From positions 23,800-87,799 of the forward strand of contig JALEHK010000022.1 of the NCBI GenBank assembly GCA_022770625.1: a stretch of 64,000 nucleotides of DNA. Direction: 5' to 3'. The position numbers and the translations under genes were made by a program. Positions 4,931 to 37,286 of the stretch are shown one piece after another (positions within the stretch are counted from its first letter, which is position 1; every line of letters starts with the position of its first letter). The notes beneath the pieces are model-generated. The model searched no databases and had not been told where the DNA came from. It was given only the letters and a program-made list of their open reading frames with translations. Source of the stretch: Oscillospiraceae bacterium (GTDB taxonomy: Bacteria > Bacillota > Clostridia > Oscillospirales > Ruminococcaceae).

Positions 4931-5629
4931 ATGGCAAAAGAAAAAAAGGCTGAACAGGCCGTGGGCGTACAGCTGCACAACAGCCCGCGGGAGCTTTCCC
5001 TCTCGCTTTTAAAAACCCTCTGCATCTGCAACGTGATCTGCGTGGTCATCGTCTTTTCGATGAGCGCGATCATGGGGAAGGGCGTCTGGGGCATCCTGGT
5101 GACTGAACTGATCTGCCTCATCATTACCGGCGCGACCCTTTACGCACAGAGCTGGTCGATGGGCGATAAGGACGCCAACTATATCCAGTTCGGAAGAATG
5201 GTCTACGATCCGGTCAAGCCGGTTAAGATCGGCCTTCTGGCAATCGCGCCGGGGCTTGTTTCGGACATCCTTCTGATCGTATCCAAGATCAGCGGGGCGT
5301 TTGATTCTCTCTGGATCTACCGACTGATGAACGCGCCGCTCTGGCCGTTGATTAACCTGATCCATCCGTATAGCATCTTTCCTCAGGCTGCGACCGAGGA
5401 AACGGTTATCATGCAGGGCACTCAGTATGAAGAGGTCATTGCCGCGTCGGACGCAACACCCGGCTGCGGATGGGGCAAGCTGATTCTGATGATCCTTCTT
5501 CCGATCATTTATATGCTGTTCATCTATGCGGGATATGAACTGGGACGCCGCCGCATCTCGATCGGCAGCAAACTCGTGTATGAAAACGAGGATGATAAAA
5601 AAGGGAAAAGACGTTTCTTTTCCAAATAA
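4931..5629 (+). CDS. hypothetical multi-pass membrane protein
   Basis: 232-aa ORF with RBS AAGGAG and several hydrophobic helices. No recognisable family. The 252-aa minus-strand ORF over it looks like a mirror ORF. Confidence 0.6.
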   Translation: MAKEKKAEQAVGVQLHNSPRELSLSLLKTLCICNVICVVIVFSMSAIMGKGVWGILVTELICLIITGATLYAQSWSMGDKDANYIQFGRMVYDPVKPVKIGLLAIAPGLVSDILLIVSKISGAFDSLWIYRLMNAPLWPLINLIHPYSIFPQAATEETVIMQGTQYEEVIAASDATPGCGWGKLILMILLPIIYMLFIYAGYELGRRRISIGSKLVYENEDDKKGKRRFFSK

Positions 5630-23230: not shown

Positions 23231-24691
23231 TTATTTCTTACCGAACGAAGCAATCGAACGGGGCTTGACGCCTTTGGGGATCGGGGGAATGTATTTTCCT
23301 CCGTCGGGAGCGAGCCGGTCTTTCAGTTCCGCTTTGGCGGCCTCAATCGTTTCGGGACTGCCATAAAGATCGATCGCCGTTGCGGCCATGATCCGCGCCG
23401 CGTACAGTTCGCCTTTGTGCGCGGTCGAGGATTTGCCCTGCGCAACGATCTGCCAGCTGTGGCCGGGGGAATCGGCGGCGATTGTCTGGACATTGGCCTG
23501 AACGACCGGGCAGACACAGCTGACGTCTCCGACGTCGGTCGAACCGGCGTGAACGGCGTCGCTGGGCGCATAGGGAATCGGCTTTAAGAAGAGCGCGGTC
23601 GAATCATCATAACCGGCGGCGTACTTGGCACCCTTGACACGCCCGACCGCTTCCTTGCAGCGGGAGAGAAAGTCTTTGTGAGAAGGACAGGTCTTGCGGA
23701 TCTCTTCGGCAAAGTCCAGTTCCTCTTCGGTGTACTCCGGCATCGGAATCGTTTCGATATTCTTCCACATGACCTCTTCGAGAACGTTGTTGGGAGTCAG
23801 TCCGGAGCAGGCTTTGATAAATTCCTCTTCGACCTGCGTTCCGGTCATCAGCGCCGCGCCCTTGGCAATGTCCGATACCCGCTCATGCAGTTCACGAACC
23901 TCGCTGTTTTTGGGACTGCGGATCAGATAGAGCACCTCCGCTTCCGACTGAACGACATTGGGAGAAGCGCCGCCCGAATTGGTGATCGCGTAGTGGATCC
24001 GCGCTTCCGGGATCATATGCTCTCTTAAAAACTGTACGCCGACATTCATCAGCTCCAGCCCGTCGAGCGCACTTCGCCCGAGATGCGGGCAGGCAGCCGC
24101 GTGGGCGCTGACCCCTTTGAAGCGGTACAGAACCTGGCAGTTCGCGAGCGAGGAAGCGTTGTTGATGGCGGTCGCGTCGCCCGGATGCCAGGAGATCGCG
24201 CAGTCCAGCTCGTCGAATACCCCGTCCCGCGCCATAAACGCCTTTCCGGAACCGCCCTCTTCTCCGGGGCAGCCGTAATAGATGACCGTTCCGGGAAGAC
24301 CGTTTTCCGAAAGATATTCCTTATATGCAGCAGCGGCGGCGATGCTTCCGACGCCTAAGAGATTGTGTCCGCAGCCATGTCCGCATCCGCCTTCGGTGAT
24401 CGGAGAAGGAGTCGCGATACCGGCTTTTTGAGAAAGACCGGAAAGAGCGTCGAATTCGCCGAGAAAACCGATGACCGGCTTTCCTTCTCCCCAGCGTCCG
24501 CTGAAGGCGGTCGGGATCCCGGCCAGTCCGCGGGTGACCGTAAAGCCCAGCTTTTCAAGCAGCGCGGTCTGTACCTTTTCGGCGGTAAATTCGGTGAACG
24601 CGAGTTCCGGCGCGTCCCAGATGGCATCGCTCGCCGCGTAAAAATCGTCCGAGTGCTCTTCGATCCAGCGAAGACTTTCCTCTTTTTTCAT
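23231..24691 (-). CDS. M20 family amidohydrolase (AbgB / aminobenzoyl-glutamate utilisation B-like)
   Basis: MKKEESLRWIEEHSDDFYAASDAIWDAPELAFTEF..., metal-ligand segments GCGHGCGHNLLG and ISWHPGD. Start 24691 follows GGAGGGAG. Confidence 0.85.
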   Translation of the reverse strand: MKKEESLRWIEEHSDDFYAASDAIWDAPELAFTEFTAEKVQTALLEKLGFTVTRGLAGIPTAFSGRWGEGKPVIGFLGEFDALSGLSQKAGIATPSPITEGGCGHGCGHNLLGVGSIAAAAAYKEYLSENGLPGTVIYYGCPGEEGGSGKAFMARDGVFDELDCAISWHPGDATAINNASSLANCQVLYRFKGVSAHAAACPHLGRSALDGLELMNVGVQFLREHMIPEARIHYAITNSGGASPNVVQSEAEVLYLIRSPKNSEVRELHERVSDIAKGAALMTGTQVEEEFIKACSGLTPNNVLEEVMWKNIETIPMPEYTEEELDFAEEIRKTCPSHKDFLSRCKEAVGRVKGAKYAAGYDDSTALFLKPIPYAPSDAVHAGSTDVGDVSCVCPVVQANVQTIAADSPGHSWQIVAQGKSSTAHKGELYAARIMAATAIDLYGSPETIEAAKAELKDRLAPDGGKYIPPIPKGVKPRSIASFGKK

Positions 24692-24826
24692 ATCAATGTC
24701 TCCCTCCGTTTTTTCTTTATCTTTATTGTAATGGGGGAAAAAGAATTTTACAATCCACATTTTGTACTATTTTCCCACGCAAAATGATCAAATCCGTACT
24801 TGTTGTATAAAAATGCAGCAAGGGGG

Positions 24827-24855
24827 TTGACATCACTAATGGAAAGTGTTATCAT
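24827..24855 (+). promoter_or_regulatory. promoter with extended -10 (TTGACA, 17-bp spacer, TGtTATCAT)
   Basis: TTGACA at 24827-24832, TATCAT at 24850-24855, preceded by TG at 24847-24848. Confidence 0.6.
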
Positions 24856-24915: not shown

Positions 24916-25017
24916 ATGCCTGTTTACCATTATGAAAAAGCTCTTCTGAATCGAATGTGTTGTCAGTGTACGACGGGGATCCGAAAATCGCCGCCTGTTT
25001 TGCCGCGCCTGCACTGA
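24916..25017 (+). CDS. candidate 33-aa small ORF (MPVYHYEKALLNRMCCQCTTGIRKSPPVLPRLH); may instead be part of a structured sRNA
   Basis: ATG lies 9 nt after GAAGGAGG. The unit has its own promoter and terminator. Third-codon positions are less G/C-biased than in neighbouring genes, so coding status is doubtful. Confidence 0.2.
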   Translation: MPVYHYEKALLNRMCCQCTTGIRKSPPVLPRLH

Positions 25018-25091
25018 TTAGACACTTGAGCGGCAAAATGATCTTTCCGGCCGGTAAATCCGTGCCGAGGGACAAAAGGAATTGTGATTTT

Positions 25092-25123
25092 CGGAAGCCT
25101 GTGAAAATGGGCTTCCTTTTTTG
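25092..25123 (+). terminator. Rho-independent terminator of the orphan unit
   Basis: GGAAGCC (25093-25099) pairs with GGCTTCC (25110-25116); TTTTTT follows. Confidence 0.7.
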
Positions 25124-25351: not shown

Positions 25352-25380
25352 TTGACATTCTGTTTCTAAAGCGCTATAAT
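25352..25380 (+). promoter_or_regulatory. consensus sigma-70 promoter of the C26/peptide-transport operon
   Basis: TTGACA at 25352-25357, exact 17-bp spacer, TATAAT at 25375-25380. Confidence 0.8.
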
Positions 25381-25386
25381 GCATAT

Positions 25387-25645
25387 AACGCAAGAAGATC
25401 AGAAAAAGACTTCATAAACGAAAGTCAAAGAATCGATTATGAAAGTCTGATTCGTAAATCTTTCTTACTGTGTACAAACAACCAACAATTGTACGCTTGG
25501 AAAATACAGTTGCCGCAAGGGTGGGGCAGAGAACGACCGTCGGGTTTTCCGAGGTTTCTCTGCCTCTTTTGTTTAGAAAAAAGCACCGTAGACCATACGG
25601 AAAGGTTTTGGGGGATATATTCTGGTAAGGAAAGAGGAATCCGAT
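25387..25645 (+). promoter_or_regulatory. unclassified 5' leader of roughly 260 nt with an intrinsic terminator (attenuator or riboswitch candidate)
   Basis: Stems GTACAA..TTGTAC. Terminator GGCAGAGAA (25525-25533) / TTCTCTGCC (25556-25564) with TCTTTTGTTT. A T-box-like AAGGGTGG overlaps the 5' arm of the terminator. The first gene starts about 70 nt further on. Confidence 0.55.
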
Positions 25646-26314
25646 ATGAAAACAGGGCTTCATCCAAAAGTTTTAATTGTAACCGAAGACGGGTTTGATC
25701 CGACGTTCGGAAGCGCTAATCTCGTGCTCAGCAGAGCGTACAGCGACGCAGTTTCTTCCGCCGGCGGCATTCCGATCACGGCGATGGACATCAGAACCTG
25801 CTCCGAATATCTGGAATTTGCGGACGCGCTTTTACTCACCGGCGGTGGAAATATACATCCTTCACGGTATAAAGGTCTGGTCAGCGATATGTCCGATCTT
25901 CAGGGCTTCTCCAATACCCGCGACGATATGGACTTCACCCTCGCTGATCTTTTTGTCAAGGCGGGGAAACCGGTTCTCGGAGTCGGAAGAGGCGCGATGG
26001 TTTTAAACGCTCTCCTCGGCGGCAACGTCAATAAACACCTTCCTGAACTTTCCGCTCATGCTTCCGATCCGCTGACCGGCGGGCTGAAAGAAATCCTTGG
26101 CGAACGCGTTTCCTTTAAGCGGGTATACGGCTGGGGAATTAAGACTCTTGCTGAATCCCTTTCAGCAGAAGCCGTTTCGGAAGAGGGCGTGATCGACGGG
26201 TTCTCCCATCAAACGCTTCCCGTAAAAGGCGTTGTCTGGCATCCCGAACGGGAACTGGACGGAAATCCGATCGACCTTCGGCTCTACCGTTGGCTGGTCA
26301 ACAGTGTGAAGTGA
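25646..26314 (+). CDS. peptidase C26 / class-I GATase-like protein, type A copy 1 (nucleophile Cys replaced by Gly)
   Basis: GKPVLGVGRGAMVLNALLGG aligns with the canonical GKPvLGICRGmQ; Gly codon GGA at 25985-25987 occupies the Cys position. VVWHPE (His-Glu) is retained. Confidence 0.8.
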   Translation: MKTGLHPKVLIVTEDGFDPTFGSANLVLSRAYSDAVSSAGGIPITAMDIRTCSEYLEFADALLLTGGGNIHPSRYKGLVSDMSDLQGFSNTRDDMDFTLADLFVKAGKPVLGVGRGAMVLNALLGGNVNKHLPELSAHASDPLTGGLKEILGERVSFKRVYGWGIKTLAESLSAEAVSEEGVIDGFSHQTLPVKGVVWHPERELDGNPIDLRLYRWLVNSVK

Positions 26315-26330
26315 AAGGGAGGGCGCGTAT

Positions 26331-27035
26331 ATGAAACCGATCATTGCATTAAACGGCGGTTCGGCACTCGACCGTCAGTTCCATTCCAAGGCTACCGTCG
26401 CCAATAAAACCTATTCGGCAGCTGTTGCGGCGGCGGGTGGCGTTCCCATTCTGGTGACCGACCCCGATTCGATCAAAAGCTACGCGGAGATCGCGGACGG
26501 CCTGATCCTGACGGGAAGCCTTTTCTTCAACCCCGATCCCGAACGGCGAAGCGAGGTTTCCAAGGCGGAAAGCGGTGAGCGGCCGGTGTATGACGCGGCG
26601 CTGTTGGACGCTTTTGTCAAAGCCGGAAAACCGGTTTTCGGTATTTGTCTCGGCCTTCAGTGTATCAACCTCTATTTCGGCGGAACGCTTGCGGACGGAT
26701 TTAAATTCAAAGACGGTGTGGAGCATATGATGTGCGCCCACAATTGTCTGGCCGGTGAAGATTCGGTCGTCGGAAAGATCTTCGGAAGCGAGTTCATGAT
26801 TAACTCCCGTCACAACCGAAAGATCGATACGCTGGCGCCGGGACTGAAAGCGGTCGCGTTTTCACCCGATGGCGTAATCGAAGAGGTACAGCATGAATCG
26901 CTTCCGGTCTGGGCGGTCGAATGGCATCCCGAACGGATGCGCGGCGACCACCGCGAACCGCCGGAAGGCCCGGATACAACGCCGCTCTTCCAGTGGTTCT
27001 GCGGCGTCTGCAAAGAAATGAGCGGGAAAGAGTAA
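26331..27035 (+). CDS. peptidase C26 / class-I GATase-like hydrolase, type B copy 1 (catalytic Cys present)
   Basis: GKPVFGICLGLQCINLYFGG (Cys codon 26646-26648), INSRH and VEWHPE. It starts 16 nt after A1. Confidence 0.8.
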   Translation: MKPIIALNGGSALDRQFHSKATVANKTYSAAVAAAGGVPILVTDPDSIKSYAEIADGLILTGSLFFNPDPERRSEVSKAESGERPVYDAALLDAFVKAGKPVFGICLGLQCINLYFGGTLADGFKFKDGVEHMMCAHNCLAGEDSVVGKIFGSEFMINSRHNRKIDTLAPGLKAVAFSPDGVIEEVQHESLPVWAVEWHPERMRGDHREPPEGPDTTPLFQWFCGVCKEMSGKE

Positions 27036-27104
27036 GAAAGCATAGCTCAATAACCTCCGGGAAAAAAAGAGAGAAAGAATCCCGGATTCAACGAGGGGGC
27101 TTTT

Positions 27105-27773
27105 ATGATGAAACCAAGAATCCTGATTGCGGCGGAGGACAGTTTTGATCCGAACACCGGAAACGGAAACATCGTCCTTTGCAAAGAGTACAGCGACGCG
27201 GTTTATCACGCCGGCGGGACGCCGCTTGTGGCGCTCGACATCCGGACGGCGAAGGAATACGCCGATGTGACCGACGCCCTTCTCCTGATCGGCGGGCCGG
27301 TCATCCATCCCGCCAAATACGGTTCGGTCGTCCGGGATTTTTCCTATCTCGGCGGCTTCTCCGGAACCCGCGACAATATGGATTTTGCTCTCGCAAAGCT
27401 CTTCCTCGCACAGGGAAAGCCGATCCTAGGAATTGGGCGGGGCGCGATGGTCGTCAACGTCCTGACCGGCGGAACGGTTAATGAATCGATCGGAGAAAAG
27501 GGTGCGGAGACGGAAGATACCCTTTCGGGACAGATGGAAAAGCTCCTTGGAAAAACGATCACCTTTAAGCGCAGCTACGGCTGGGGAATCGGACGTCTCG
27601 GTGAAGGAATGCAGCCGGAAGCGGTCGCTCCGGACGGAACGGTCGATGCCATCGTACATAAAGAGAAGCCGGTGTGGGGCGTTGTATGGCACCCCGAACA
27701 TCCGGACGATGGCGCTGCTCCCGATAACCGGCTGTACGAGATGTTTGTTTCGGCAGCCGCATCGGCAGACTGA
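27105..27773 (+). CDS. peptidase C26 / class-I GATase-like protein, type A copy 2 (nucleophile Cys replaced by Gly)
   Basis: GKPILGIGRGAMVVNVLTGG with Gly codon 27435-27437 at the nucleophile position. VVWHPE is retained. Same length as A1 (222 aa) and collinear with it. Confidence 0.8.
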   Translation: MMKPRILIAAEDSFDPNTGNGNIVLCKEYSDAVYHAGGTPLVALDIRTAKEYADVTDALLLIGGPVIHPAKYGSVVRDFSYLGGFSGTRDNMDFALAKLFLAQGKPILGIGRGAMVVNVLTGGTVNESIGEKGAETEDTLSGQMEKLLGKTITFKRSYGWGIGRLGEGMQPEAVAPDGTVDAIVHKEKPVWGVVWHPEHPDDGAAPDNRLYEMFVSAAASAD

Positions 27774-27792
27774 ACGGGAGGGGAAAACAGGA

Positions 27793-28497
27793 ATGAAACC
27801 GATCATTGCGATAAACGGCGCTTCGGCGTTTGACCGTCAGTTTTTCACCAAAGGGAAGGTTGCTTTTAAGGCTTACCCGCAGGCAGTCGCCGCGGCAGGC
27901 GGCGTTCCGCTGATGGTTCCCTCGATCCATTCGGTCGATGAGTACGCATGGCTCGCGGACGGCCTGCTCCTGACCGGAAGCCTTTCGTTTGCTCCGGCTC
28001 CCGCCTATACGCCGCTCGTCAATAAAATGGAGGAAAAAGAACGGCCCATCTTCGATTCGGCTCTGGTTCTCGCCTTTGCAAAGGCCAAAAAACCGATCAT
28101 GGGCGTCTGTCTCGGTCTTCAGTGTATCAACCTTACCTTCGGCGGAACACTGAAAAACCACTTCAAACTGGAAGATGGCGTCGAACATATGCTGACCGCG
28201 CACCCTTGTATCGCCGGTACGGAATCGATCGCGGGGAAGCTGTTCGGAAAAGAATTTATCATCAATTCCCGCCATGAACGAAGGATCGATACCTTGGCTC
28301 CGGGACTTGAAGCGACCGCGTGGTCGCCCGACGGAGTCATCGAAGAGATCAAACACGAGTCGCTTCCGATCTGGGCGTTTGAATGGCACCCCGAACGGAT
28401 GCGGGGAGATGACCGGGATCCGCCGGAAGGCCCGGATACAACGCCGCTCTTTGAGTGGTTTGTGAATACCTGCGCAGCCGTCAGAGACGCTGAGTAA
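27793..28497 (+). CDS. peptidase C26 / class-I GATase-like hydrolase, type B copy 2 (catalytic Cys present)
   Basis: KKPIMGVCLGLQCINLTFGG (Cys codon 28108-28110), INSRH and FEWHPE. 234 aa, gap-free collinear with B1. Start ATG 27793 follows GGGAGGGG; the ORF-track extension to 27481 overlaps A2. Confidence 0.8.
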   Translation: MKPIIAINGASAFDRQFFTKGKVAFKAYPQAVAAAGGVPLMVPSIHSVDEYAWLADGLLLTGSLSFAPAPAYTPLVNKMEEKERPIFDSALVLAFAKAKKPIMGVCLGLQCINLTFGGTLKNHFKLEDGVEHMLTAHPCIAGTESIAGKLFGKEFIINSRHERRIDTLAPGLEATAWSPDGVIEEIKHESLPIWAFEWHPERMRGDDRDPPEGPDTTPLFEWFVNTCAAVRDAE

Positions 28498-28532
28498 GTA
28501 CAGAGAAGTCTTTGCGTAAAGGAGGCTCATTG

Positions 28533-29516
28533 ATGGAACTGGAAGAAAGAAAGGTTCTGCTTGAGACCAGAGAACTGAAAAAATACTTTTACAATAAAAG
28601 CGGACTGAAAGTCAAGAGCGTTGTAAAAGCGGTCGATAATGTTGATCTGACCATCCATGAAGGAGAAACTGTAGGGCTTGTCGGAGAATCCGGATGCGGA
28701 AAATCCACCTTCGGACGGGCGATCCTGCGGCTTCAGGAACCGACCGACGGACAGATCTTCTATCGGGGCAAGCAGATCCAGCGGCTTCCGTTTAAGGAGA
28801 TGCGCCCTTATCGGAAAGAGATGCAGGTCATCTTTCAGGACCCGGCGGCCTCTTTGAATCCCCGCAAAACGATCATGCAGTCGATCCGGATCCCGCTGGA
28901 AGTCAACCACATCGGCACCAAAGCCGAACAGCAGGAGCGGGCGGAAGCGATGCTCAGCTATGTAGAACTCAACCCGAGCAACTGGTACAAATTCCCGCAT
29001 GAGATGTCCGGCGGCCAGAAACAGCGCGCGATGATCGCACGGGCGCTGATCACCCACCCGTCTTTTATCGTGGGTGACGAACCGGTTTCGGCTCTGGACG
29101 TTTCGATTCAGGCGCAGGTCTTAAACCTGATGAAGAAGATCCAGCAGGAGGAACAGCTTTCCTACCTCTTTATCTCCCATGACCTTTCGGTCGTCCGCTT
29201 TCTCTGCGATAAGGTCGCGGTCATGTACCTTGGAAAGATTATCGAGATCGGCACCAAAAAGGAGATTTTCGATACTCCCCTTCATCCTTACACAAAGGCG
29301 CTGATGAGTGCGATCCCGATTCCCGATGTTCATGTACATACCAAGCGGATCGTCCTGGAAGGGGATGTACCAAGCCCGATGAATCCTCCTTCCGGATGCC
29401 GGTTCAGAACCCGCTGTCCGTATGCAAACGCCCACTGCGCCGAGGTTGAACCGACGCTTGACCTCATCAGCGGCGAGCATAAGGTCGCCTGTACAAGGCT
29501 TTCGGAAATCGGATAA
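28533..29516 (+). CDS. oligopeptide/dipeptide ABC transporter ATPase (OppF/DppF-like)
   Basis: [24 protein letters not shown], and a C-terminal Cys motif [15 protein letters not shown]...HKVAC. RBS AAAGGAGG. Confidence 0.9.
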
Positions 29517-29635
29517 AAAGGAAAATGCGCTTAAACGCCGGACAATCGGTTCGGCTGAAAATAGGAGAGAACTTATCGATCACTGAAGGATTTTTCCTCA
29601 GTCGTCCATTTATCTAAAGAAAGAAGCGATTGAAA

Positions 29636-31318
29636 ATGAAGGCAGTTCAGTTCACGTCCATTCTCTCCACCCTTGCAATCGTCATGGCCATGCTCGCCGG
29701 ATGCGGCGGCAGCACCTCTTCCGCTTCCTCTGCTGCAAGCGGAAGTCCTTCTGAAGGGACTTCGGGAAGTTCCTCTGAAAGCTCTTCCGAATCGGCGGAC
29801 GGCGAGACTGCGGCTTCTTCCGACAGCATCGTGACCGTCGCCTACACCACCGCGTGGGATTCGCTCATGCCCTATAACTCCTCTTCCGGTTCGATGTACA
29901 CGATGGAGGTCGTCGATAAAATCTACGACCGTCTGGCCTACGCCGAGATCGGCGCAAGCGCTTTCCAGCCCAGAGCGGCTTCTTCGTGGGAATCGGCGGA
30001 CGACAATATGTCGATCATTTTCCACCTCGATGAAAACGCGACATGGTCGGACGGCGAACCGGTTACGGCGGCCGACTGGATCTACACCTTTACCCTCATC
30101 AGCGATCCGAACTTTACCGGAACTTCCCGCGGCCCGATGAAAAATATTGCCGGTACCGATGACACCGGCACAGCGGTCGAAGGCGAGGAACTCGGCGTGG
30201 AAGCGCTGGATGACTACACCTTAAAAATCCACCTCAAGGTTGCTTCTTCTCCCGAAGACTGGCTGCTCGCCAACAACCGCGCGACCGTTGTTCTTCCGGA
30301 ACACTGCCTGAAAGACATCCCGCTGGACAGCATCCTGACCGACGAGTTCTGGACGAATCCCGTCGGAAGCGGCCCACTTCAATTCGAGAGTGAAGTTATT
30401 GGTTCCGAACTGGTGCTTGCTTCCCGGCCGGAATATCAACTCGGCGCACCCGGCTTCGGCAAGATGGTCTGTACCGTCATGGATTCCTCCAACACGATGA
30501 ATGCGATTATCGCCGGCGATATTGATATGGTCTGCCTCGGAAACTCCGTTTCGACCAGCAACGTCGAACTGGCTGAGTCCTCCGGCCTGACCGTTAAGCA
30601 GAACGACCTTCCGACTTCCTTTACCGAGATGATCATCAACAACACCAACATCACCGACGCAAAACTTCGTCAGGCGCTCTGGTACGCGCTCGATATCGAT
30701 ACGATCACCTCCCTCATGACCGACGGCTACGGCATCCCCGCCTATACCTACATCATGCCCGGAAGCGAATACGAAAACACCGACTCCGCCGCTCATTACG
30801 ATCCCGATTACGCCCGTCAGCTGCTTGAAGAATCCAGCTACAACGGCGAAACCTATACGATCGCCTGCGGCTCCTCCCGTGAAGCGCTCGTATCGCTGAT
30901 CCAGCAGTATTTTGACGATATCGGCTTCAATATGGAGATCGCTCTGGTTGACGTCGCGACGATGTTCGCCGGATGCCAGGACGGCACCTACGACTTCGGT
31001 GTTTCCGGCCATACCGCGACCGCAAGCCCCGTCTGGTTCGATAACGCGACCAGTTTTCACATCATCGGCGGCACCTCTTATTTCCAGGTCACCGATCCGA
31101 CCTACACCGAGATGTTCGAGAAGATCAACTCGCTCTTTGACGAGACCGAAAAGATCGAGGCCACTAAGGAATATCAGGCGTATATCGCCGAACAGACCCC
31201 CTTTATTCCGCTCTGGTTCCAGGCAGGTCTTTATATCGAAAGCGATACCGTTTCCGGCGTTGATTACGGCGCCGCCGGTATGTGCAACGATAACGTCTGG
31301 GATTGGGTCAAGGAATAA
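29636..31318 (+). CDS. peptide ABC transporter substrate-binding lipoprotein, family 5 (copy 1)
   Basis: Lipobox LAGCGGS, a Ser-rich linker, and a family-5 SBP body of about 500 aa. Confidence 0.9.
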   Translation: MKAVQFTSILSTLAIVMAMLAGCGGSTSSASSAASGSPSEGTSGSSSESSSESADGETAASSDSIVTVAYTTAWDSLMPYNSSSGSMYTMEVVDKIYDRLAYAEIGASAFQPRAASSWESADDNMSIIFHLDENATWSDGEPVTAADWIYTFTLISDPNFTGTSRGPMKNIAGTDDTGTAVEGEELGVEALDDYTLKIHLKVASSPEDWLLANNRATVVLPEHCLKDIPLDSILTDEFWTNPVGSGPLQFESEVIGSELVLASRPEYQLGAPGFGKMVCTVMDSSNTMNAIIAGDIDMVCLGNSVSTSNVELAESSGLTVKQNDLPTSFTEMIINNTNITDAKLRQALWYALDIDTITSLMTDGYGIPAYTYIMPGSEYENTDSAAHYDPDYARQLLEESSYNGETYTIACGSSREALVSLIQQYFDDIGFNMEIALVDVATMFAGCQDGTYDFGVSGHTATASPVWFDNATSFHIIGGTSYFQVTDPTYTEMFEKINSLFDETEKIEATKEYQAYIAEQTPFIPLWFQAGLYIESDTVSGVDYGAAGMCNDNVWDWVKE

Positions 31319-31482
31319 CCGCTTTCCTAATTGAAAAAGACCGGAGTGGGAAACTCTCTCCACTCCGGAATATGCAGAGATTCTCCGCAGGAGGGGGATA
31401 TTTGCACCTACTGCCGTTCGGGTATCAGAAGGACTGAGCTTTGAAGAACGGCAGAATACCATAAAGAAAGAAGCGCTTAAAA

Positions 31483-33165
31483 ATGAAGGCAGTCAAAATC
31501 ACATCCGTACTTTCCACGATCGTTATCCTCGCGTCGATGATGGCAAGCTGCGGCGGTTCCGGAAGCACCGCCTCCACCTCTTCCGAAAGCTCCGTTTCCG
31601 GTGAATCGTCTGCTGCATCCTCTTCCGCTGAAAGCAGCGCGGAAGCAGCAACCGGTTCTTCCGACAGCGTTGTAACCGTTGCTTACACCACCGCGTGGGA
31701 TTCTCTAATGCCTTATAACTCTTCCTCCGGTTCGATGTACAACCTTGAGGTGCTGGGCAATATCTACGACCGTCTGGCCTACAGCAAGCTCAACGGCGAT
31801 GAATTTACTCCCAGAGGCGCTTCTTCCTGGGAATCGGCCGACGACAATCAGGCAATCGTTTTCCACCTCGATGAAAACGCGACCTGGTCGGATGGCGAAC
31901 CGGTCACCGCTTCTGACTGGGTTTATACCCTGAAGCTGGTCAGCGATCCCTCCTTTACCGGTACCTCCAGAAGCTGCGCCAAGACCATCGCCGGGACCGA
32001 TGACAACGGCGTAGCGATCGATGGCGAGACCTTCGGCGCCGAAGCGGTCGATGATTATACCTTAAAACTCACCCTGAAGACCGCCGCAACTCCCGAGGAC
32101 TGGCTGCTGGCAAATAACCGCAACTTCTTCGTCCTCCCCGAGCATTGCCTGACCGATTACACCGCCGCCGACGTTATCAACGCCGACTTCTGGACGGCTC
32201 CGGTCGGAAGCGGCCCGCTTAAATTTGAGAGCGAGGTCATCGGTTCCGAGTTGGTTCTCGATGCCCGTCCTGAGTATCAGCTCGGCGCTCCCGGCTTTGG
32301 TAAGATGGTCTGCACCGTCATGGATTCTTCCAACACGATGAACGCGATCATCGCCGGCGATATCGATCTGGTCTGCATCGGCAACCGTGTCTTGACCAGC
32401 AACATCGAGCTTGCTGAAGCTTCCGGTCTGGAGGTCAAGCAGTTCGATCAGGCGACCCAGTTCAACGAGCTGTTGATCAACAACTCCAACATCACCGATT
32501 ACCGGATTCGCGAAGCGCTCTGGTACGCGCTGGATAAGGACACCATCACTTCGGTCATGACCGACGGCTACGGCGTACCGGTCGATACCTACATCGTCCC
32601 CGGCAACCAGTTTGAAAACACCGACATCGATATGCCTTACGATCCCGAGAAGGCGAAAGAGCTGCTTGCTGAGGCGGGCTACAACGGCGAGACCTATACG
32701 ATGGCGTGCGGTTCCTCCCGTGAGCCGCTGGCTTCTCTCTTACAGCAGTATTACGATGCGATCGGCTTCAACATGGACATCGCGTTGGTTGACGTCGCAA
32801 CCATGTTCTCCGGCTTGAAGGACGGTACCTATGACATCGGCGTTTCCGGTCACTCGGCGACCGCAAGCCCCGTCTGGTTCTGCAACGCGACCAGTTTCCA
32901 GGTGCTCGCCGGTGAAGGGAGCTCCAGCTACGCGGTAACCGATCCGAAGTTTGGAGAGTATTTTGACCAGATCAACTCGATCTTTACGACCGAGGAACGC
33001 CTTCCGGTCGTCAAAGAGTTCCAGGCTTATATCGCCGAGCAGGTTCCCTTTATCCCGCTCTGGTACACCGCTGACCACTACATCGAATCCACCACCGTTT
33101 CCGGTGTCGATTACGGCGGATCCTGGATGTGCAATGATAACGTCTGGGATTGGGTCAAAGAGTAA
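31483..33165 (+). CDS. peptide ABC transporter substrate-binding lipoprotein, family 5 (copy 2, paralogue of 29636-31318)
   Basis: Lipobox MASCGGSGS. 560 aa, collinear with copy 1 and sharing long identical blocks (VVTVAYTTAWDSLMPYNSSSGSMY, RPEYQLGAPGFGKMVCTVMDSSNTMNAIIAGDID). Confidence 0.9.
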   Translation: MKAVKITSVLSTIVILASMMASCGGSGSTASTSSESSVSGESSAASSSAESSAEAATGSSDSVVTVAYTTAWDSLMPYNSSSGSMYNLEVLGNIYDRLAYSKLNGDEFTPRGASSWESADDNQAIVFHLDENATWSDGEPVTASDWVYTLKLVSDPSFTGTSRSCAKTIAGTDDNGVAIDGETFGAEAVDDYTLKLTLKTAATPEDWLLANNRNFFVLPEHCLTDYTAADVINADFWTAPVGSGPLKFESEVIGSELVLDARPEYQLGAPGFGKMVCTVMDSSNTMNAIIAGDIDLVCIGNRVLTSNIELAEASGLEVKQFDQATQFNELLINNSNITDYRIREALWYALDKDTITSVMTDGYGVPVDTYIVPGNQFENTDIDMPYDPEKAKELLAEAGYNGETYTMACGSSREPLASLLQQYYDAIGFNMDIALVDVATMFSGLKDGTYDIGVSGHSATASPVWFCNATSFQVLAGEGSSSYAVTDPKFGEYFDQINSIFTTEERLPVVKEFQAYIAEQVPFIPLWYTADHYIESTTVSGVDYGGSWMCNDNVWDWVKE

Positions 33166-33319: not shown

Positions 33320-34273
33320 ATGCTTAAATACTTGGGTAAGCGAATCCTGACTGCAATTCCGATCTTTTTCGGGATCACGGTTATCATCTATGTGATGCTG
33401 AATATGGCGCCCGGAAGCGCTCTGGATATGCTCGCTTCGAGTGAAATTTCCGTTGACAGCGCCGCTTACGATCAGCTCAAAGCCCAGCTCGGCCTTGATA
33501 AACCGGTCTGGATGCGTTATCTGCTCTGGCTCAAAGACCTGTTCCAGCTGAACTTCGGTACCTCCTACCGTACCAGTCAGGACGTATGGACGATGGTCTC
33601 CCAGAGAATCGGCCCCTCAATCCTCCTTTCGGGCACCGGCGTTATCCTCGCGATCCTCCTCGCGCTCCCGATCGGCATCATGGCTGCCTATAAGCCCTAC
33701 TCCAAATGGGACAGCGTATCTTCCTTCTTTGCCCTGATCGGCTCGACCCTTCCCGGCTTCCTGCTGAGCCTTCTGCTCATCTACGTTTTCTCGATCAAAT
33801 TAAAGCTCCTCCCGACCTCCGGTATGCATTCTTCGGGCGATACGAGCTTTATCGACCTTTTCCGACACCTGCTCTTACCGGCGCTGATTATCTGCATCGG
33901 CTCGATGGGCAACCTCATCAAACAGACCCGAAGCGCATGTCTGGAAGTCCTTCATGAGGATTTCGTAAAGACCGCCCGCTCCAAGGGCATCAAGGAACAG
34001 GCCGTTGTCCTTAAGCACGTTTTCAGAAACGCCCTGATCCCGGTTTCAACGACCATTCTTCTTCAGATCCCCCACATCATCGGCGGTACAACGATCGTTG
34101 AGCAGATCTTCGGCTGGCCGGGACTCGGCTCTCTGATGATCAGCTCGATCAATAACCGCGACTATCCGGTTGTCATGTGCGTAGCCGTTATCATCGCGAT
34201 CACCGTCCTCGTGACCAATATCCTGATCGATATCGTCTACGGCTTCCTTGACCCGCGCGTCAGCTATGACTGA
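33320..34273 (+). CDS. peptide ABC transporter permease (OppB/DppB-like)
   Basis: 317 aa, N-terminus MLKYLGKRILTAIP, and the EAA-loop region DFVKTARSKGIKE. Confidence 0.9.
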   Translation: MLKYLGKRILTAIPIFFGITVIIYVMLNMAPGSALDMLASSEISVDSAAYDQLKAQLGLDKPVWMRYLLWLKDLFQLNFGTSYRTSQDVWTMVSQRIGPSILLSGTGVILAILLALPIGIMAAYKPYSKWDSVSSFFALIGSTLPGFLLSLLLIYVFSIKLKLLPTSGMHSSGDTSFIDLFRHLLLPALIICIGSMGNLIKQTRSACLEVLHEDFVKTARSKGIKEQAVVLKHVFRNALIPVSTTILLQIPHIIGGTTIVEQIFGWPGLGSLMISSINNRDYPVVMCVAVIIAITVLVTNILIDIVYGFLDPRVSYD

Positions 34274-34301
34274 TTCTGATTCTGAAAGAAGGGAAATTCT
34301 T

Positions 34302-35189
34302 ATGGAAATGACAGCGAAATCCGTATCCGCGCCCAAAAAGAAAGAAAGTCAGGCGCTGAAAAGCTTCCGCAAAAATAAAAGAGCCATGTTCGGCGCGATC
34401 TTTATCATCATCGAAACGCTGCTCGTGATTCTGCTCCCGATCATCCTTCATACTGATCCCAATACATCCGACCTACTCTCCGGAAAATATGCATCTCCTT
34501 CGGCGGCTCACTGGCTGGGCACCGACTCGATTGGACGCGACCTCTTCGCCCGTCTGCTTTCGGGCGGCAAGGTATCGCTGTTGGTCGGCTTGAGTTCTCC
34601 TCTGATCAGCGTTGCGATCGGTCTTCCGCTCGGCCTTCTCGCCGGCTACTACCGCGGTGTGATCGAAACGATCGTCATGCGTCTGGCGGACATCTTCATG
34701 TCCTTCCCGAGCATGATCCTGATCCTCTGCCTGGTCGCGGTCGTCGGCCCGTCGATCACCACCATCATCGTCGTTATCGGCGTCATGGGCTGGACCCAGA
34801 TTGCAAAGCTCGTCTACGGAAACGTTGTTTCCATCCGCAGCAAGGAATACATCGAATCGGCGCGCGCGGCCGGATGCAGCGACGCCTATATCATCTTCCG
34901 TGAGATCCTTCCCAACGCCATCAGCCCGGTATGGGTTCTGCTTTCCTTCCGCGTCGGCGGCGCGATCATGACCGAATCCGGTCTGTCCTTCCTCGGCGTC
35001 GGTATTCAGGCTCCGCAGGCTTCTTGGGGCAATATCATCAACGCTGCGACCGACCTTTCCGTTTTAATGCTCCGTCCGTGGGTATGGATGCCGGCAGGTG
35101 TGCTGATCGTTATGACGGTCGTTTCCTTTAACTTTATCGGTGAAGGTATCCGCGACGCTCTTGACCCCAAAATGAAACGTGTAGACTGA
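34302..35189 (+). CDS. peptide ABC transporter permease (OppC/DppC-like)
   Basis: HWLGTDSIGRDLFARL motif and EYIESARAAGCSD EAA loop. I prefer the start at 34302 (after AGAAGGGA). Confidence 0.9.
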   Translation: MEMTAKSVSAPKKKESQALKSFRKNKRAMFGAIFIIIETLLVILLPIILHTDPNTSDLLSGKYASPSAAHWLGTDSIGRDLFARLLSGGKVSLLVGLSSPLISVAIGLPLGLLAGYYRGVIETIVMRLADIFMSFPSMILILCLVAVVGPSITTIIVVIGVMGWTQIAKLVYGNVVSIRSKEYIESARAAGCSDAYIIFREILPNAISPVWVLLSFRVGGAIMTESGLSFLGVGIQAPQASWGNIINAATDLSVLMLRPWVWMPAGVLIVMTVVSFNFIGEGIRDALDPKMKRVD

Positions 35190-35219
35190 TTCATGGAAAA
35201 ATCCAAGGAGGAACCGAAC

Positions 35220-36188
35220 ATGGCAGAAAACCTGCTTGAAGTAAAAGACCTTGAGGTTGATTTCCGGGTCGGTGACGGAAAGGTTGTCACCGCCATCAAA
35301 GACGTTAACTTCTCCCTGATTAAAGGACATACCCTCGGCATCGTCGGCGAGTCCGGCTGCGGCAAATCGGTCACGGCCAACACCATCATGAAGCTCCTTC
35401 CCAAAGAGTCCGGCATCATCGCCGGCGGACAGATCCTCTTTGACGGAAAGGACATCGTTCCGATGAGCGATGAGGAGATGCGAAATATCCGCGGCAAACA
35501 TATCGGCATGATTTTTCAGGAACCGATGACCTCATTAAACCCCGTTTACCGGATCGAGACGCAGATGACCGAAATGCTTTTGGCGCACGAAAAGCTGACT
35601 AAAAAAGAAGCGCATGAGCGTTGTCTGGAAATGCTCAAGGCGGTCGGCATCCCCGAACCGGAACGCCGCCTTCGGGAGTATCCCCACCAGCTTTCCGGCG
35701 GTATGCGCCAGAGAATTATGATCGCGATGGTTTTGTCGGTCAAGCCCGAGCTGATTATTGCCGATGAGCCGACGACCGCTCTGGACGTTACGATTCAGGC
35801 GCAGATCATGGAGCTGATGGGCAAGCTCAAAGAAGAGATGGGAACCTCGATCATCCTGATTACCCACGATATGGGCGTTATCGCCGACATCGCCGATGAC
35901 GTCATGGTTATGTACGGCGGAAACGTTGTCGAACAGGCGCCGGTAGCCGACATCTTTGAGCATCCCCTCCATCCCTATACTCAGGGGCTTCTCGCCTCGA
36001 TTCCGCGTATGGATATGGACGTTGAGACGCTCGCCGCGATCGAAGGAACCGTTCCGTCGCTTGCGGAAATGCCGACCGGCTGTCATTTCTCGACCCGCTG
36101 CCCCTACTGCACCGAAAAGTGCCGCAGTGAAAACCCCGCGATGGTCGATCAGGGCGGTCATAAAGTTGCCTGCTGGAAATATGAATAA
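35220..36188 (+). CDS. oligopeptide/dipeptide ABC transporter ATPase (OppD/DppD-like)
   Basis: [28 protein letters not shown], and a C-terminal GCHFSTRCPYCTEKC...HKVAC. Start 35220 follows AAGGAGGAA. Confidence 0.9.
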   Translation: MAENLLEVKDLEVDFRVGDGKVVTAIKDVNFSLIKGHTLGIVGESGCGKSVTANTIMKLLPKESGIIAGGQILFDGKDIVPMSDEEMRNIRGKHIGMIFQEPMTSLNPVYRIETQMTEMLLAHEKLTKKEAHERCLEMLKAVGIPEPERRLREYPHQLSGGMRQRIMIAMVLSVKPELIIADEPTTALDVTIQAQIMELMGKLKEEMGTSIILITHDMGVIADIADDVMVMYGGNVVEQAPVADIFEHPLHPYTQGLLASIPRMDMDVETLAAIEGTVPSLAEMPTGCHFSTRCPYCTEKCRSENPAMVDQGGHKVACWKYE

Positions 36189-36290: not shown

Positions 36291-37286
36291 ATGAGTAAAG
36301 CGATCCCCTATATCGATATGCACTGCGACACCCTGATGCACGGCGTCGGAAAAAAAGCGGAGGACATCTTCTCGATGCCCGATGCGATGGTCGATCTGGA
36401 ACGCCTTTCAAAAGCGGGCGTCTATGCCCAGTTTTTCGCCGTCTTTTTCCCGCCGAAGGAAGGAATGGAGAAGTCCCTCGGGATCACCGATGACGACGCA
36501 TATTTTTCCGCCGCACATACCCTTCTGAAGAACACGATTTCCCGCCACGGCGACCTTCTCGCTTTCGCTGGAAACGCCGTGGACGCCGAGAAAAACCATG
36601 CGCAGGGAAAGGTTTCCGCCTTCCTGACGATGGAGGACGGCCGCGCGGTTCAGGGAAGCTTTGACCGTCTGCGCTATTTTTACAATCAGGGCGTGCGGCT
36701 GATCTCGCTGACCTGGAACTTTGAAAACTGCTTCGGCGCGCCCAACTCGAAGGATCCCGCCATGATGAATAAAGGGCTGACCGCCTTCGGTAAGGAAGCG
36801 GTCGGAGCAATGAATGAGATGGGAATCATCGTCGACGTCTCCCACCTTTCGGACGGCGGCTTCTGGGACGTTGTCAACCTGACCCGTAAGCCCTTTGTCG
36901 CTTCTCATTCCAACTGTCGCGCGCTGACGCCCCATACCCGGAACCTGACTGATGAGATGATCCGCGCACTCGCGGAAAAAGGCGGAGTAGCGGGTCTTAA
37001 TTTTGCACCCGAATTCCTTTGGACAGAAGCCGACGCAGCCGCAGGCAGCAAAATCAGCCGGATCGAGCGGATGTGCGCCCACCTGTCTCATCTGATTGAC
37101 GTTGGCGGTGAAGACTGCGCGGCAATCGGAACCGACTTTGACGGCATCAGCGGCGAGCTGGAGGTCGGAACGCCGACTGAGATGGGAAAACTGTTCGAGG
37201 CGCTGAGTCGTCACGGATTTTCGGATCGCCTGATTGAGAAAATCGCATATCAGAATACCCTGCGCGTCATTCGGGAAACGATGTAA
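36291..37286 (+). CDS. membrane-dipeptidase family (M19, renal-dipeptidase-like) dipeptidase
   Basis: N-terminal IDMHCDTL, and LISLTWNFEN, IVDVSHLSD, ASHSNCRAL and IGTDFDG segments typical of M19. Confidence 0.85.
   Translation: MSKAIPYIDMHCDTLMHGVGKKAEDIFSMPDAMVDLERLSKAGVYAQFFAVFFPPKEGMEKSLGITDDDAYFSAAHTLLKNTISRHGDLLAFAGNAVDAEKNHAQGKVSAFLTMEDGRAVQGSFDRLRYFYNQGVRLISLTWNFENCFGAPNSKDPAMMNKGLTAFGKEAVGAMNEMGIIVDVSHLSDGGFWDVVNLTRKPFVASHSNCRALTPHTRNLTDEMIRALAEKGGVAGLNFAPEFLWTEADAAAGSKISRIERMCAHLSHLIDVGGEDCAAIGTDFDGISGELEVGTPTEMGKLFEALSRHGFSDRLIEKIAYQNTLRVIRETM

What the first reader, a model, noticed from the sequence alone, without database searches (positions are those of the whole stretch)
25646..28497. 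A-B-A-B array of peptidase-C26/GATase-like genes in which both A copies have lost the nucleophile cysteine
Four consecutive genes form two copies of a two-gene module, A1-B1-A2-B2. Seen in sequence: A1 and A2 are both 222 aa, and B1 and B2 are both 234 aa and align without gaps. Within a module the genes are 16 and 19 nt apart; the modules are 69 nt apart. In the nucleophile-elbow segment that reads GICRG or GICLG in C26/class-I GATases, the B proteins read FGICLGLQ and MGVCLGLQ (Cys codons 26646-26648 and 28108-28110). The A proteins read LGVGRGAM and LGIGRGAM (Gly codons 25985-25987 and 27435-27437). All four keep the WHPE His-Glu segment. The A proteins also replace the NS.HH substrate segment with YGWGI. 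The two A copies differ from each other at many positions, and so do the two B copies, so the duplication of the module looks old and both versions have been kept. Inference: each pair may form a heteromer of an inactive, pseudoenzyme-like A subunit and a catalytic B subunit. I do not know of a described C26 hydrolase with a dedicated Cys-less partner encoded in this way.
Basis: partly seen in the sequence, partly recalled or inferred. Interest (0 to 1): 0.75.

Follow-up and report, generated by a model that had tools for sequence, protein, structure and literature searches.

The report
Dead-partner/active-enzyme C26 hydrolase gene pairs
Four neighbouring genes in a gut Oscillospiraceae bacterium are two copies of a widespread but apparently undescribed two-gene unit, in which a cysteine hydrolase of the gamma-glutamyl hydrolase (C26) family is always encoded next to, or fused with, a sister protein that has lost the catalytic cysteine and most likely serves as its non-catalytic partner subunit.

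Summary
A1 (25646-26314), B1 (26331-27035), A2 (27105-27773) and B2 (27793-28497) are all Pfam Peptidase_C26. Both B proteins have the Cys-His-Glu triad. Both A proteins have Gly at the nucleophile.

The heteromer interpretation is strongly supported by comparative evidence.
- Cys-less "A-type" proteins form one clade and B-type proteins form another.
- In 31 of 32 informative metagenome loci, an A-type gene has a Cys-bearing C26 gene directly next to it or fused to it. All six further related loci examined show the same.
- The two genes often overlap by 1-8 nt.
- At least 18 clusters of natural A-B fusion proteins exist, and there are also B-A fusions.
- A-A and B-B divergences correlate (r=0.79).
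- A is under purifying selection, but its His is lost in about a third of lineages, against 0 of 225 Cys-bearing relatives.
- An AlphaFold2 model of a natural fusion is compact (pLDDT 86, pTM 0.88).

The pair often sits inside Opp-type peptide importer operons, as it does here.

Untested: physical binding, the substrate, and what A contributes.

I found no description of this pairing in the searchable literature. NCBI names all four proteins identically. I rate it a new variant of a known enzyme kind, of moderate to high interest.

The parts
25646..26314 (+). A1: Cys-less C26 paralogue (222 aa), predicted non-catalytic partner subunit. The nucleophile position is Gly114 (codon 25985-25987). 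WHPE is kept.
   Evidence: ORF. Pfam PF07722 at 98.7 bits. Gly aligned to the ICRG Cys of 3fij and 7d4r. Codon checked. Identical to NCBI MCI6022899.1.
26331..27035 (+). B1: C26 / class-I GATase-like cysteine hydrolase (234 aa) with an intact Cys106-His-Glu triad (Cys codon 26646-26648) and the B-type tail HPERMRGD..PPEGPD.
   Evidence: ORF. PF07722 at 128.8 bits and PF00117 at 64.1 bits. PDB sequence matches to 3fij, 7d4r and 6vtv. Codon checked.
27105..27773 (+). A2: second Cys-less C26 paralogue (222 aa), Gly codon 27435-27437, 52% identical to A1.
   Evidence: NCBI MCI6022901.1.
27793..28497 (+). B2: second catalytic-type C26 hydrolase (234 aa), Cys codon 28108-28110, 65% identical to B1 with no gaps.
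   Evidence: NCBI MCI6022902.1.
25352..25380 (+). Consensus sigma-70-type promoter (TTGACA, 17 nt, TATAAT) upstream of A1. It is conserved in the related loci L001 and L003.
   Evidence: Promoter scan gives 12 of 12 matches. Alignment.
25521..25575 (+). Conserved hairpin plus U-run in the roughly 265-nt leader of A1. Candidate transcription attenuator, sensor unknown.
   Evidence: Conserved in the window, L001 and L003 with one compensatory G-C to A-U change. The scan found a short hairpin with a T-run at 25551-25566 inside it. No Rfam family matches.
28512..29516 (+). OppF-type ABC ATPase directly downstream of B2.
   Evidence: Pfam ABC_tran plus oligo_HPY. The same gene follows B in L001, L003, L011, L019 and L052.
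29630..33165 (+). Two tandem family-5 solute-binding lipoproteins (29630-31318 and 31483-33165) of the peptide/opine/nickel type.
   Evidence: Pfam SBP_bac_5 at 200 and 207 bits. The best NCBIfam match is Opp4A-like but far below cutoff.
33320..36188 (+). Two permeases (33320-34273 and 34248-35189) and an OppD-type ATPase (35193-36188) that complete the importer.
   Evidence: ORFs. Assigned by matching order and length to the Pfam-annotated genes of L001 and L003. Not scanned directly here.
36291..37286 (+). M19 membrane-type dipeptidase downstream of the importer.
   Evidence: Pfam Peptidase_M19 at 296.5 bits. Absent at this position in L001 and L003.
23231..24760 (-). Divergently transcribed M20-family amidohydrolase. 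It holds the same position in L001 and L003.
   Evidence: Pfam M20 and M20_dimer. NCBIfam TIGR01891 amidohydrolase at 253 bits against a cutoff of 153.75. Contexts.

Best explanation
Each A-B gene pair most likely encodes one heteromeric hydrolase, a pseudo-homodimer of two ancient paralogues.

B carries the Cys-His-Glu triad. It is predicted to cleave a gamma-glutamyl-type amide or isopeptide bond through a thioester intermediate, as PuuD and SpuA do.

A keeps the fold, the nucleophile-elbow geometry (KP-x-L-G-I-G-R-G) and the surface that packs against B, but it has lost the nucleophile. It is therefore a pseudoenzyme that stabilises B, positions it, or helps it bind substrate.

In this organism (Candidatus Faecivivens / Oscillospiraceae) the pair has been duplicated as a unit into two diverged modules. 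These lead an Opp-type ABC importer operon that has two binding proteins. The hydrolases therefore probably process imported peptide-like amides in the cytoplasm. The neighbouring M20 and M19 peptidases would finish the breakdown.

Shown by tool results: family membership, loss of Cys, conserved adjacency, overlapping genes, fusions, co-divergence and purifying selection.

Inferred: physical complex formation of the unfused proteins, catalytic inactivity of A, the substrate class, and the role of A.
For: Family and catalytic residues.

Clades. All 53 Cys-less sequences fall in one neighbour-joining clade of 56. 32 of 33 B-type sequences (Cys plus the HPERMRGD tail) fall in another clade of 36.

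Adjacency, from a metagenome scan with the pattern KP[IV][LFM]GIGRG. Of 32 informative loci:
- 27 have A followed directly by a Cys-bearing C26 gene;
- 1 has the order B then A;
- 3 are single fused ORFs;
- 1 is solo.

The pair also occurs in Lacrimispora indolis, an uncultured Clostridiales genome, Ca. Copromonas, a Treponema MAG and others. Start and stop overlaps of 1-8 nt in these relatives suggest translational coupling.

Fusions. At least 18 clusters of full-length A-B fusions (467-518 aa) were found, from Negativicutes, Bacillota and Oscillospiraceae MAGs and from a 2.9-Mb contig. B-A order fusions also exist: P0015 and P0068.

Co-divergence. Pearson r = 0.79 over 26 pairs. Both A2 and B2 branch outside the group formed by module 1, L001 and L003, so the module was duplicated as a unit.

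Selection. pN is 0.19-0.34 against pS 0.66-0.73 for A. dN of A is about 1.4-1.8 times that of B in the orthologue comparisons. Mean A-A identity is 38.5%, against 48% for B-B.

Relaxed triad. His is kept in 21 of 33 Gly-type proteins, against 225 of 225 Cys-type. In L. indolis, WHPE has become WNPL.

Structure. The AlphaFold2 model of natural fusion P0013, built on a 19-sequence fusion alignment, has pLDDT 86 and pTM 0.88. I would not expect a pTM this high from two roughly 230-residue domains without a confident mutual arrangement. The linker (residues 233-235) has pLDDT below 50.

Controls. Cys-retaining close relatives are unpaired: P0261 and P0246, and P0037 inside the A clade.

Operon link. 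The pair lies inside or at the head of Opp-type operons in the window, L001, L003, L011, L019 and L052.
Against: - No direct interaction evidence exists for the unfused window proteins.
- The structure tool returns no PAE or coordinates. The interface itself could not be inspected or compared with C26 homodimer interfaces.
- The model is of a fusion homologue, not of A1:B1.
- In the window's own subclade the A proteins keep WHPE strictly and have a new conserved Y-G-W-G-I motif. A residual or different activity there cannot be excluded.
- Adjacency and fusion would also fit two enzymes acting in sequence rather than in a complex.
- Many metagenome loci come from the same few species, so the 31 of 32 count overstates the number of independent lineages.
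- The substrate assignment rests only on family resemblance and operon context. All NCBIfam equivalog scores are far below cutoff.
Confidence: 0.7

Rival explanations
1. A and B are separate proteins acting in the same pathway without forming a complex. For example, A could be a cytoplasmic ligand-binding or sequestering protein, or an enzyme with different chemistry that uses its retained His-Glu on the product or substrate of B.
For: The window subclade of A keeps WHPE and has a new conserved YGWGI motif plus many invariant pocket-region residues. Operon neighbours and even fusions are also common for consecutive pathway enzymes. Arg after the nucleophile position is invariant in A, 33 of 33, which hints at a retained ligand site.
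Against: His is lost in about a third of A lineages and Glu in several, so no His/Glu-dependent chemistry can be general to the clade. Some fusions keep only the N-terminal half of A: P0017, P0019 and P0020. That fits a structural role better than an enzymatic one. The compact fusion model with pTM 0.88 and the correlated divergence favour direct contact.
Confidence: 0.17
2. A is still a hydrolase that uses another nucleophile or a water activated by His-Glu. Each module would then encode two active enzymes.
For: WHPE is kept in A1 and A2. The elbow geometry (G-x-G-R-G) and the oxyanion-region GG are kept.
Against: No Cys, Ser or Thr is conserved anywhere in the A clade. Gly, Asn or Asp occupies the nucleophile position in all members. 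The His is replaced in about a third of them. It is established knowledge of class-I GATases and C26 enzymes that catalysis goes through a Cys thioester; the PDB entry 7d50 title (SpuA 'with glutamyl-thioester') illustrates this.
Confidence: 0.06
3. A is a decaying, functionless duplicate (a pseudogene in the making) that merely sits next to the working gene.
For: The catalytic Cys is lost, and A evolves faster than B.
Against: The reading frames are intact, and pN is far below pS. The clade has dozens of 50%-identity clusters across Clostridia, Negativicutes and Treponema. Ribosome-binding sites are retained. A has been fused repeatedly to B. Many motifs are invariant.
Confidence: 0.02

Closest known systems
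PuuD / SpuA / Lin1909-type bacterial C26 gamma-glutamyl-amide hydrolases (PDB 6vtv, 7d4r/7d50/7d53, 3fij)
   Same: Same Pfam family, PF07722. Same fold: Foldseek target-normalised TM 0.80-0.83 for the fusion homologue model. The B proteins have the same Cys-His-Glu triad at the same positions.
   Different: The known enzymes are encoded by a single gene. Here a dedicated Cys-less paralogue is always co-encoded or fused. B-type proteins carry an extra invariant C-terminal motif (HPERMRGD..P.EGPD) and NSRHN in place of NS.HHQ. NCBIfam equivalog scores are far below cutoff, for example PuuD at 28-46 bits against 266, so these are not orthologues of PuuD. No PDB chain covers both halves of a fusion (query-normalised TM no higher than 0.44).
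Human / plant gamma-glutamyl hydrolase and plant gamma-glutamyl peptidase GGP1 (C26)
   Same: Same peptidase family, with chemistry on gamma-glutamyl isopeptide bonds. GGP1 cleaves glutathione to Glu and Cys-Gly (PMC12958103 abstract). The window locus also carries an M19 dipeptidase and an M20 amidohydrolase that could process such products.
   Different: These enzymes did not appear among sequence or fold matches here. No pseudoenzyme partner is mentioned in the abstracts I saw. Substrate identity for the window proteins is untested.
Viral pseudo-glutamine-amidotransferases (gammaherpesvirus vGAT) that recruit a cellular active GAT
   Same: The concept is the same: an enzyme-dead GATase homologue cooperates with an active GATase (PMC7605207 abstract).
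   Different: Those are unrelated FGARAT-type proteins of eukaryotic viruses that act on host signalling proteins. They are not C26 members, not bacterial, and not an operon-encoded paralogue pair.
Bacterial enzyme / dead-paralogue pairs such as HisG-HisZ, and the M20 paralogue pair AbgA-AbgB (from my own knowledge, not tested here)
   Same: The architecture is alike: a paralogue is co-encoded and serves as a partner subunit.
   Different: The folds and chemistry differ. These are cited only as analogy.

Membership tests
Peptidase C26 (Pfam PF07722; PuuD-like class-I GATase-fold hydrolases) | Significant match to the family profile over most of its length | tested here: met
   All four proteins score 98.7-128.8 bits against a cutoff of 20.5 and cover profile positions from about 1-23 to 219 of 219.
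Peptidase C26 (Pfam PF07722; PuuD-like class-I GATase-fold hydrolases) | Catalytic Cys at the nucleophile elbow, plus the His-Glu pair | tested here: met
   For B1 and B2 only: GICLG and GVCLG, plus WHPE, aligned to the ICRG and WHPE of 3fij and 7d4r.
Peptidase C26, as an active enzyme (applied to A1 and A2) | Catalytic Cys at the nucleophile elbow | tested here: not met
   A1 and A2 have Gly at that position, as does the whole A clade (G, N or D). A1 and A2 are homologues by fold and sequence but should not be filed as active C26 peptidases.
Peptidase C26 (fold) | Class-I glutamine-amidotransferase alpha/beta fold | tested here: met
   Tested on a homologue, not on the window proteins. The AlphaFold2 model of natural fusion P0013 matches SpuA, Lin1909 and PuuD with target-normalised TM 0.80-0.83.
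PuuD (gamma-glutamyl-GABA hydrolase) equivalog NF008471, and Cj1417-type NF045546 | Score at or above the curated equivalog cutoff | tested here: not met
   28-46 bits against 266 for NF008471, and 39-59 bits against 250 for NF045546. The NCBI name 'gamma-glutamyl-gamma-aminobutyrate hydrolase family protein' is a family label, not a function.
Pseudoenzyme (non-catalytic paralogue kept by selection) | Loss of an essential catalytic residue together with evidence of purifying selection | tested here: met
   Cys is replaced by Gly across a near-monophyletic clade. pN is far below pS. His is relaxed, 21 of 33 against 225 of 225. Lack of activity itself was not measured.
Obligate heteromeric enzyme (A:B complex) | Conserved gene adjacency, gene fusion (Rosetta stone) and co-evolution of the two partners | tested here: met
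   31 of 32 informative loci are adjacent or fused. Fusions occur in both orders. r = 0.79. The fusion model has pTM 0.88.
Obligate heteromeric enzyme (A:B complex) | Physical association of the two polypeptides, and dependence of activity on both | not testable with these tools
   This needs a multimer prediction with PAE/ipTM, co-purification and enzyme assays.
Gamma-glutamyl bond hydrolase (function) | Hydrolysis of a gamma-glutamyl amide or peptide | not testable with these tools
   There is only family resemblance and Opp/M20/M19 context.

The most novel reading that the evidence does not exclude
The A subunit is more than a scaffold. The A:B pair would be an obligate heterodimer in which the Cys-less subunit keeps a ligand pocket (invariant Arg after the lost nucleophile, and often His-Glu). 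That pocket would serve as a substrate-recognition or allosteric site for the single catalytic centre in B. This would make a previously unrecognised class of pseudoenzyme-dependent cysteine hydrolases, common in gut Clostridia.

The two diverged modules of this window would then be specialised for two different imported substrates, matching the two tandem binding proteins. The whole operon would be switched by an unknown leader RNA or attenuator.
Probability: 0.3. Interest if true: 0.75.

Novelty: new variant of a known kind. Interest (0 to 1): 0.6.

Why it matters
C26 / PuuD-like hydrolases are treated as single-gene enzymes. Annotation pipelines give the Cys-less and the Cys-bearing proteins the same name, so half of these genes are probably mis-described as enzymes.

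Recognising a conserved pseudoenzyme-enzyme pair has several uses:
- It gives a clean bacterial model for how a dead paralogue is retained as a subunit. Here one ancient duplication was followed by loss of the nucleophile, then relaxation of His, and several independent fusions.
- It warns experimenters that B may need A for expression or activity.
- It marks a widespread gut-Firmicutes locus for catabolism of imported peptide-like amides whose substrate is unknown.
- It corrects functional inference for dozens of protein clusters.

The conserved leader terminator also offers a route to the inducing ligand.

Tried and rejected
- The first genome-contig scan, with A1 alone, found nothing. The rescan with an alignment gave only two loci.
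- A single-sequence AlphaFold2 run of fusion P0013 was useless (pLDDT 30) and cost one of the two jobs.
- A block-diagonal alignment of fusions plus single A and B proteins failed, because MAFFT stacked all single proteins on the B half.
- Rfam found nothing in the window or in the leader.
- Literature searches for a C26 pseudoenzyme, PF07722, PuuD homodimers or the SpuA structure paper gave nothing on such a pairing. The only conceptual precedent found was viral pseudo-GATs.
- I considered a complementation idea: A keeps the Arg after the nucleophile while B loses it. I set it aside as a general rule, because many paired B proteins (the P0204 group) keep GICRG.
- I considered a glutathione-type pathway (C26, M19 Cys-Gly dipeptidase, M20, GsiB-like binding protein). 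I kept it only as speculation. The GsiB match is 46-47 bits against a cutoff of 594, and M19 and M20 are not conserved next to the pair in other lineages.
- dN/dS values are not reliable as ratios, because dS is saturated. Only pN far below pS is used.
- My first tree script mis-indexed the nucleophile column. It was redone with motif-based typing.


Full report
**1. The observation**

The four ORFs are exactly as described. A1 is 25646-26314 (222 aa), B1 is 26331-27035 (234 aa) and A2 is 27105-27773 (222 aa). B2 is 27793-28497 (234 aa), read from an internal ATG of a longer mechanical ORF. All are on the + strand. The spacers are 16, 69 and 19 nt, and each gene has its own Shine-Dalgarno-like run.

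All four proteins pass the Pfam Peptidase_C26 threshold comfortably. The B proteins also pass the class-I GATase model, which the A proteins match only weakly.

The quoted codons are correct: GGA and GGG (Gly) in VLGVGRGA and ILGIGRGA, and TGT (Cys) in VFGICLGL and IMGVCLGL. HMMER alignments to the solved C26 structures Lin1909 (3fij), SpuA (7d4r) and PuuD (6vtv) put the A-protein Gly on the ICRG nucleophile Cys.

All four proteins keep WHPE. A has KR[VS]YGWGI where B has INSRH[NE].

A1 and A2 are 52% identical. B1 and B2 are 65% identical with no gaps. A versus B is about 35%. Synonymous sites between the modules are near saturation.

The window comes from a Candidatus Faecivivens / Oscillospiraceae MAG. 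The four proteins are the consecutive NCBI entries MCI6022899.1 to MCI6022902.1, and all four are named 'gamma-glutamyl-gamma-aminobutyrate hydrolase family protein'.

**2. The A type is a clade, not an accident**

A profile of six A-type sequences was searched against 1.84 billion cluster representatives. It found 36 hits below 1e-30. About 35 of the best 150 representatives have G[IVL]GRG at the elbow, two have Asn and one has Asp.

In a 31-sequence A-type alignment, the motif K-P-x-x-G-I-(G/N/D)-R-G...N...G-G is invariant or nearly so. No Cys, Ser or Thr is conserved anywhere.

| Type | n | His kept | Glu kept |
|---|---|---|---|
| Cys-bearing | 225 | 225 | 224 |
| Gly-type | 33 | 21 | 26 |

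In Lacrimispora indolis the A partner reads WNPL instead of WHPE, so the whole triad is gone.

A neighbour-joining tree puts all 53 Cys-less sequences in one clade of 56. It puts 32 of 33 B-type sequences (Cys plus the tail HPERMRGD) in another clade of 36. The tree is distance-based with a rough bootstrap only.

The simplest reading is one old duplication, with the nucleophile lost once in the A lineage.

**3. A and B travel together**

Close relatives of the window carry a single A-B module in the same neighbourhood. That neighbourhood is a divergent M20 amidohydrolase, then A, B, an OppF-type ATPase, one or two family-5 binding proteins, two permeases and an OppD-type ATPase. The A and B genes overlap by 4 nt (L001 and L003).

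The pair also occurs without any transporter, again with overlapping genes:
- an uncultured Clostridiales genome (L009);
- Ca. Copromonas faecavium (L010, a more distant A that still has NSFHHQ);
- a very common gut species (L013).

Lacrimispora indolis has A-B followed by the Opp genes. L052 has binding protein, A, B, then OppF and the rest. A Treponema MAG (L053) and L054 have the pair too, the latter with Asn at the nucleophile and a shortened A.

A metagenome scan with the A-specific peptide KP[IV][LFM]GIGRG returned 34 loci. Of the 32 where the contig extends beyond A:

| Arrangement | Loci |
|---|---|
| A followed directly by a Cys-bearing C26 gene | 27 (three are A-B-B' triples) |
| Order B then A | 1 |
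| Single fused ORF | 3 |
| Solo (L050, a canonical-looking protein at 28% identity, probably an independent loss) | 1 |

Several of these loci are the same species sampled repeatedly, so there are perhaps a dozen independent lineages.

The reverse test also holds. Five of five B-type proteins looked up have a Cys-less partner. The nearest Cys-bearing relatives with canonical motifs are solo. These are P0261/P0246 (36-39% identical to B1), and P0037, which groups with the A clade.

**4. Fusions, co-divergence, selection and structure**

Natural A-B fusion proteins of 467-518 aa form at least 18 clusters at 90% identity. They come from Negativicutes, Bacillota and Oscillospiraceae MAGs and from a 2.9-Mb contig. 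In them, GIGRG is invariant in the first half, and GICLG and HPERxRG (HPERMRGD in most) in the second.

B-A order fusions also exist (P0015, P0068). So do fusions that keep only the N-terminal half of A (P0017, P0019, P0020).

Over 26 pairs, A-A and B-B identities correlate (Pearson 0.79). A diverges faster, with mean identity 38.5% against 48%.

Both A2 and B2 branch outside the group formed by module 1, L001 and L003. The module was therefore duplicated, or acquired, as a unit before those lineages split.

A is under purifying selection: pN is 0.19-0.34 against pS 0.66-0.73. dS is saturated, so ratios are not quoted as estimates.

An AlphaFold2 model of fusion P0013, built from the 19-sequence fusion alignment, has mean pLDDT 86 and pTM 0.88. 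Only the linker and two loops are below 50. I would not expect a whole-chain pTM this high from two domains of about 230 residues unless their mutual arrangement is confidently predicted. The tool gives no PAE or coordinates, so the interface could not be inspected.

Foldseek against the PDB matches each half to SpuA, Lin1909 and PuuD (target-normalised TM 0.80-0.83). No solved chain covers both halves.

**5. Mechanism proposed**

B is the catalytic subunit, a Cys-His-Glu hydrolase of gamma-glutamyl-type amide bonds acting through a thioester. This mechanism is family knowledge, illustrated by the PDB entry title of 7d50.

A is a non-catalytic paralogue that packs against B as a pseudo-homodimer. 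It is needed for stability, positioning or substrate binding.

In this window two diverged modules head an Opp-type importer operon that has two binding proteins. An M20 amidohydrolase lies upstream and an M19 dipeptidase downstream. This fits cytoplasmic breakdown of imported peptide-like amides.

Neighbours in other lineages vary but are rich in amide hydrolases and Opp components: Amidohydro_1, 2 and 3, M20, S9 and a cyclase/formamidase-like protein.

The substrate is unknown. All NCBIfam equivalog scores are far below cutoff.

**6. Rivals**

- Independent pathway partners without a complex: about 0.17.
- A as an active enzyme with another nucleophile: about 0.06.
- A as a decaying relic: about 0.02.

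Evidence for and against each is given in the rival explanations section of this report. The main residual doubt is that the window's own A subclade keeps WHPE and has a new conserved YGWGI motif. A subclade-specific activity or ligand site therefore remains possible.

**7. Comparison with what is known, and novelty**

The proteins belong to the C26 / PuuD-like family by sequence and fold. A1 and A2 fail the family's catalytic definition. None of the four reaches any equivalog cutoff.

My searches of the held literature found no description of a C26 hydrolase with a dedicated Cys-less partner. The nearest concept is the viral pseudo-GAT that recruits a cellular GAT (PMC7605207), together with dead-paralogue partner pairs such as HisZ-HisG, which I cite from my own knowledge. 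The literature check covers only the held library, so an existing description elsewhere cannot be excluded.

I rate this as a new variant of a known kind.

**8. Verdict**

Interest is 0.6. The finding is a solid and testable pseudoenzyme-enzyme system that is widespread in gut anaerobes and uniformly mis-annotated. Its chemistry, however, is probably ordinary, and its substrate is unknown.

Noticed in passing
window 25352-25645 (leader of A1); also L001 about 9760-10000 and L003 about 5000-5241: A perfect TTGACA-17-TATAAT promoter is followed about 140 nt later by a conserved hairpin plus U-run (about 25521-25575). The hairpin shows one compensatory change in L003. No Rfam family matches. This is a candidate attenuator or unknown riboswitch-like leader controlling the C26-Opp operon.
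   Followed up: partly
window 24917-25018 (+): A small Cys-rich ORF of 33 aa (MPVYHYEKALLNRMCCQCTTGIRKSPPVLPRLH) lies in the long M20-A1 intergenic region. It has a GGAGG ribosome-binding site, a promoter-like site at 24827-24855 and a strong terminator-like hairpin at 25093-25116 followed by a T-run. Function unknown.
   Followed up: no
window 29630-31318 and 31483-33165: There are two tandem paralogous family-5 solute-binding lipoproteins, matching the two A-B modules in number. L001 has two binding proteins but one module, and L003 has one of each, so the correspondence is not strict.
   Followed up: partly
L023, L025, L026 (about 2983-5306): These loci carry three C26 genes in a row: one Cys-less A followed by two Cys-bearing B-type genes (A-B-B'). 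This is a different way of expanding the module from the window's A-B-A-B.
   Followed up: partly
P0017, P0019, P0020 (fusion proteins): These fusions keep only the N-terminal half of A (up to just past GIGRG) in front of a complete B domain. This suggests that this half of A carries the part that matters.
   Followed up: no
L055 4001-4714 (P0037); L015/L016 8001-8705 (P0261): The close relatives that keep the Cys are unpaired, including one that groups with the A clade. This fits the rule that solo genes are catalytic and the Cys-less type occurs paired.
   Followed up: yes
L050 1537-2319: This soil-metagenome C26 protein has GIGRG but otherwise canonical motifs (TGGQDVDP, NSSHHQ, WHPE), and no partner lies within the 3.3-kb contig. 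It may be an independent loss of the nucleophile.
   Followed up: partly
window 25646-28497; NCBI MCI6022899.1-MCI6022902.1: The public annotation gives all four proteins the same enzyme name, so the Cys-less proteins are annotated as hydrolases.
   Followed up: yes
window 36291-37286 and 23231-24760: An M19 dipeptidase and an M20 amidohydrolase flank the C26-Opp operon. This resembles the enzyme set for glutathione-type breakdown: a gamma-glutamyl cut followed by a dipeptidase step. It is only a lead, because these genes are not conserved next to the pair in other lineages.
   Followed up: partly
window 27035-27104: The 69-nt spacer between the two modules contains a short inverted repeat (CCGGGA...TCCCGG) with no U-run. 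It might be an mRNA processing or stability element between the modules.
   Followed up: no
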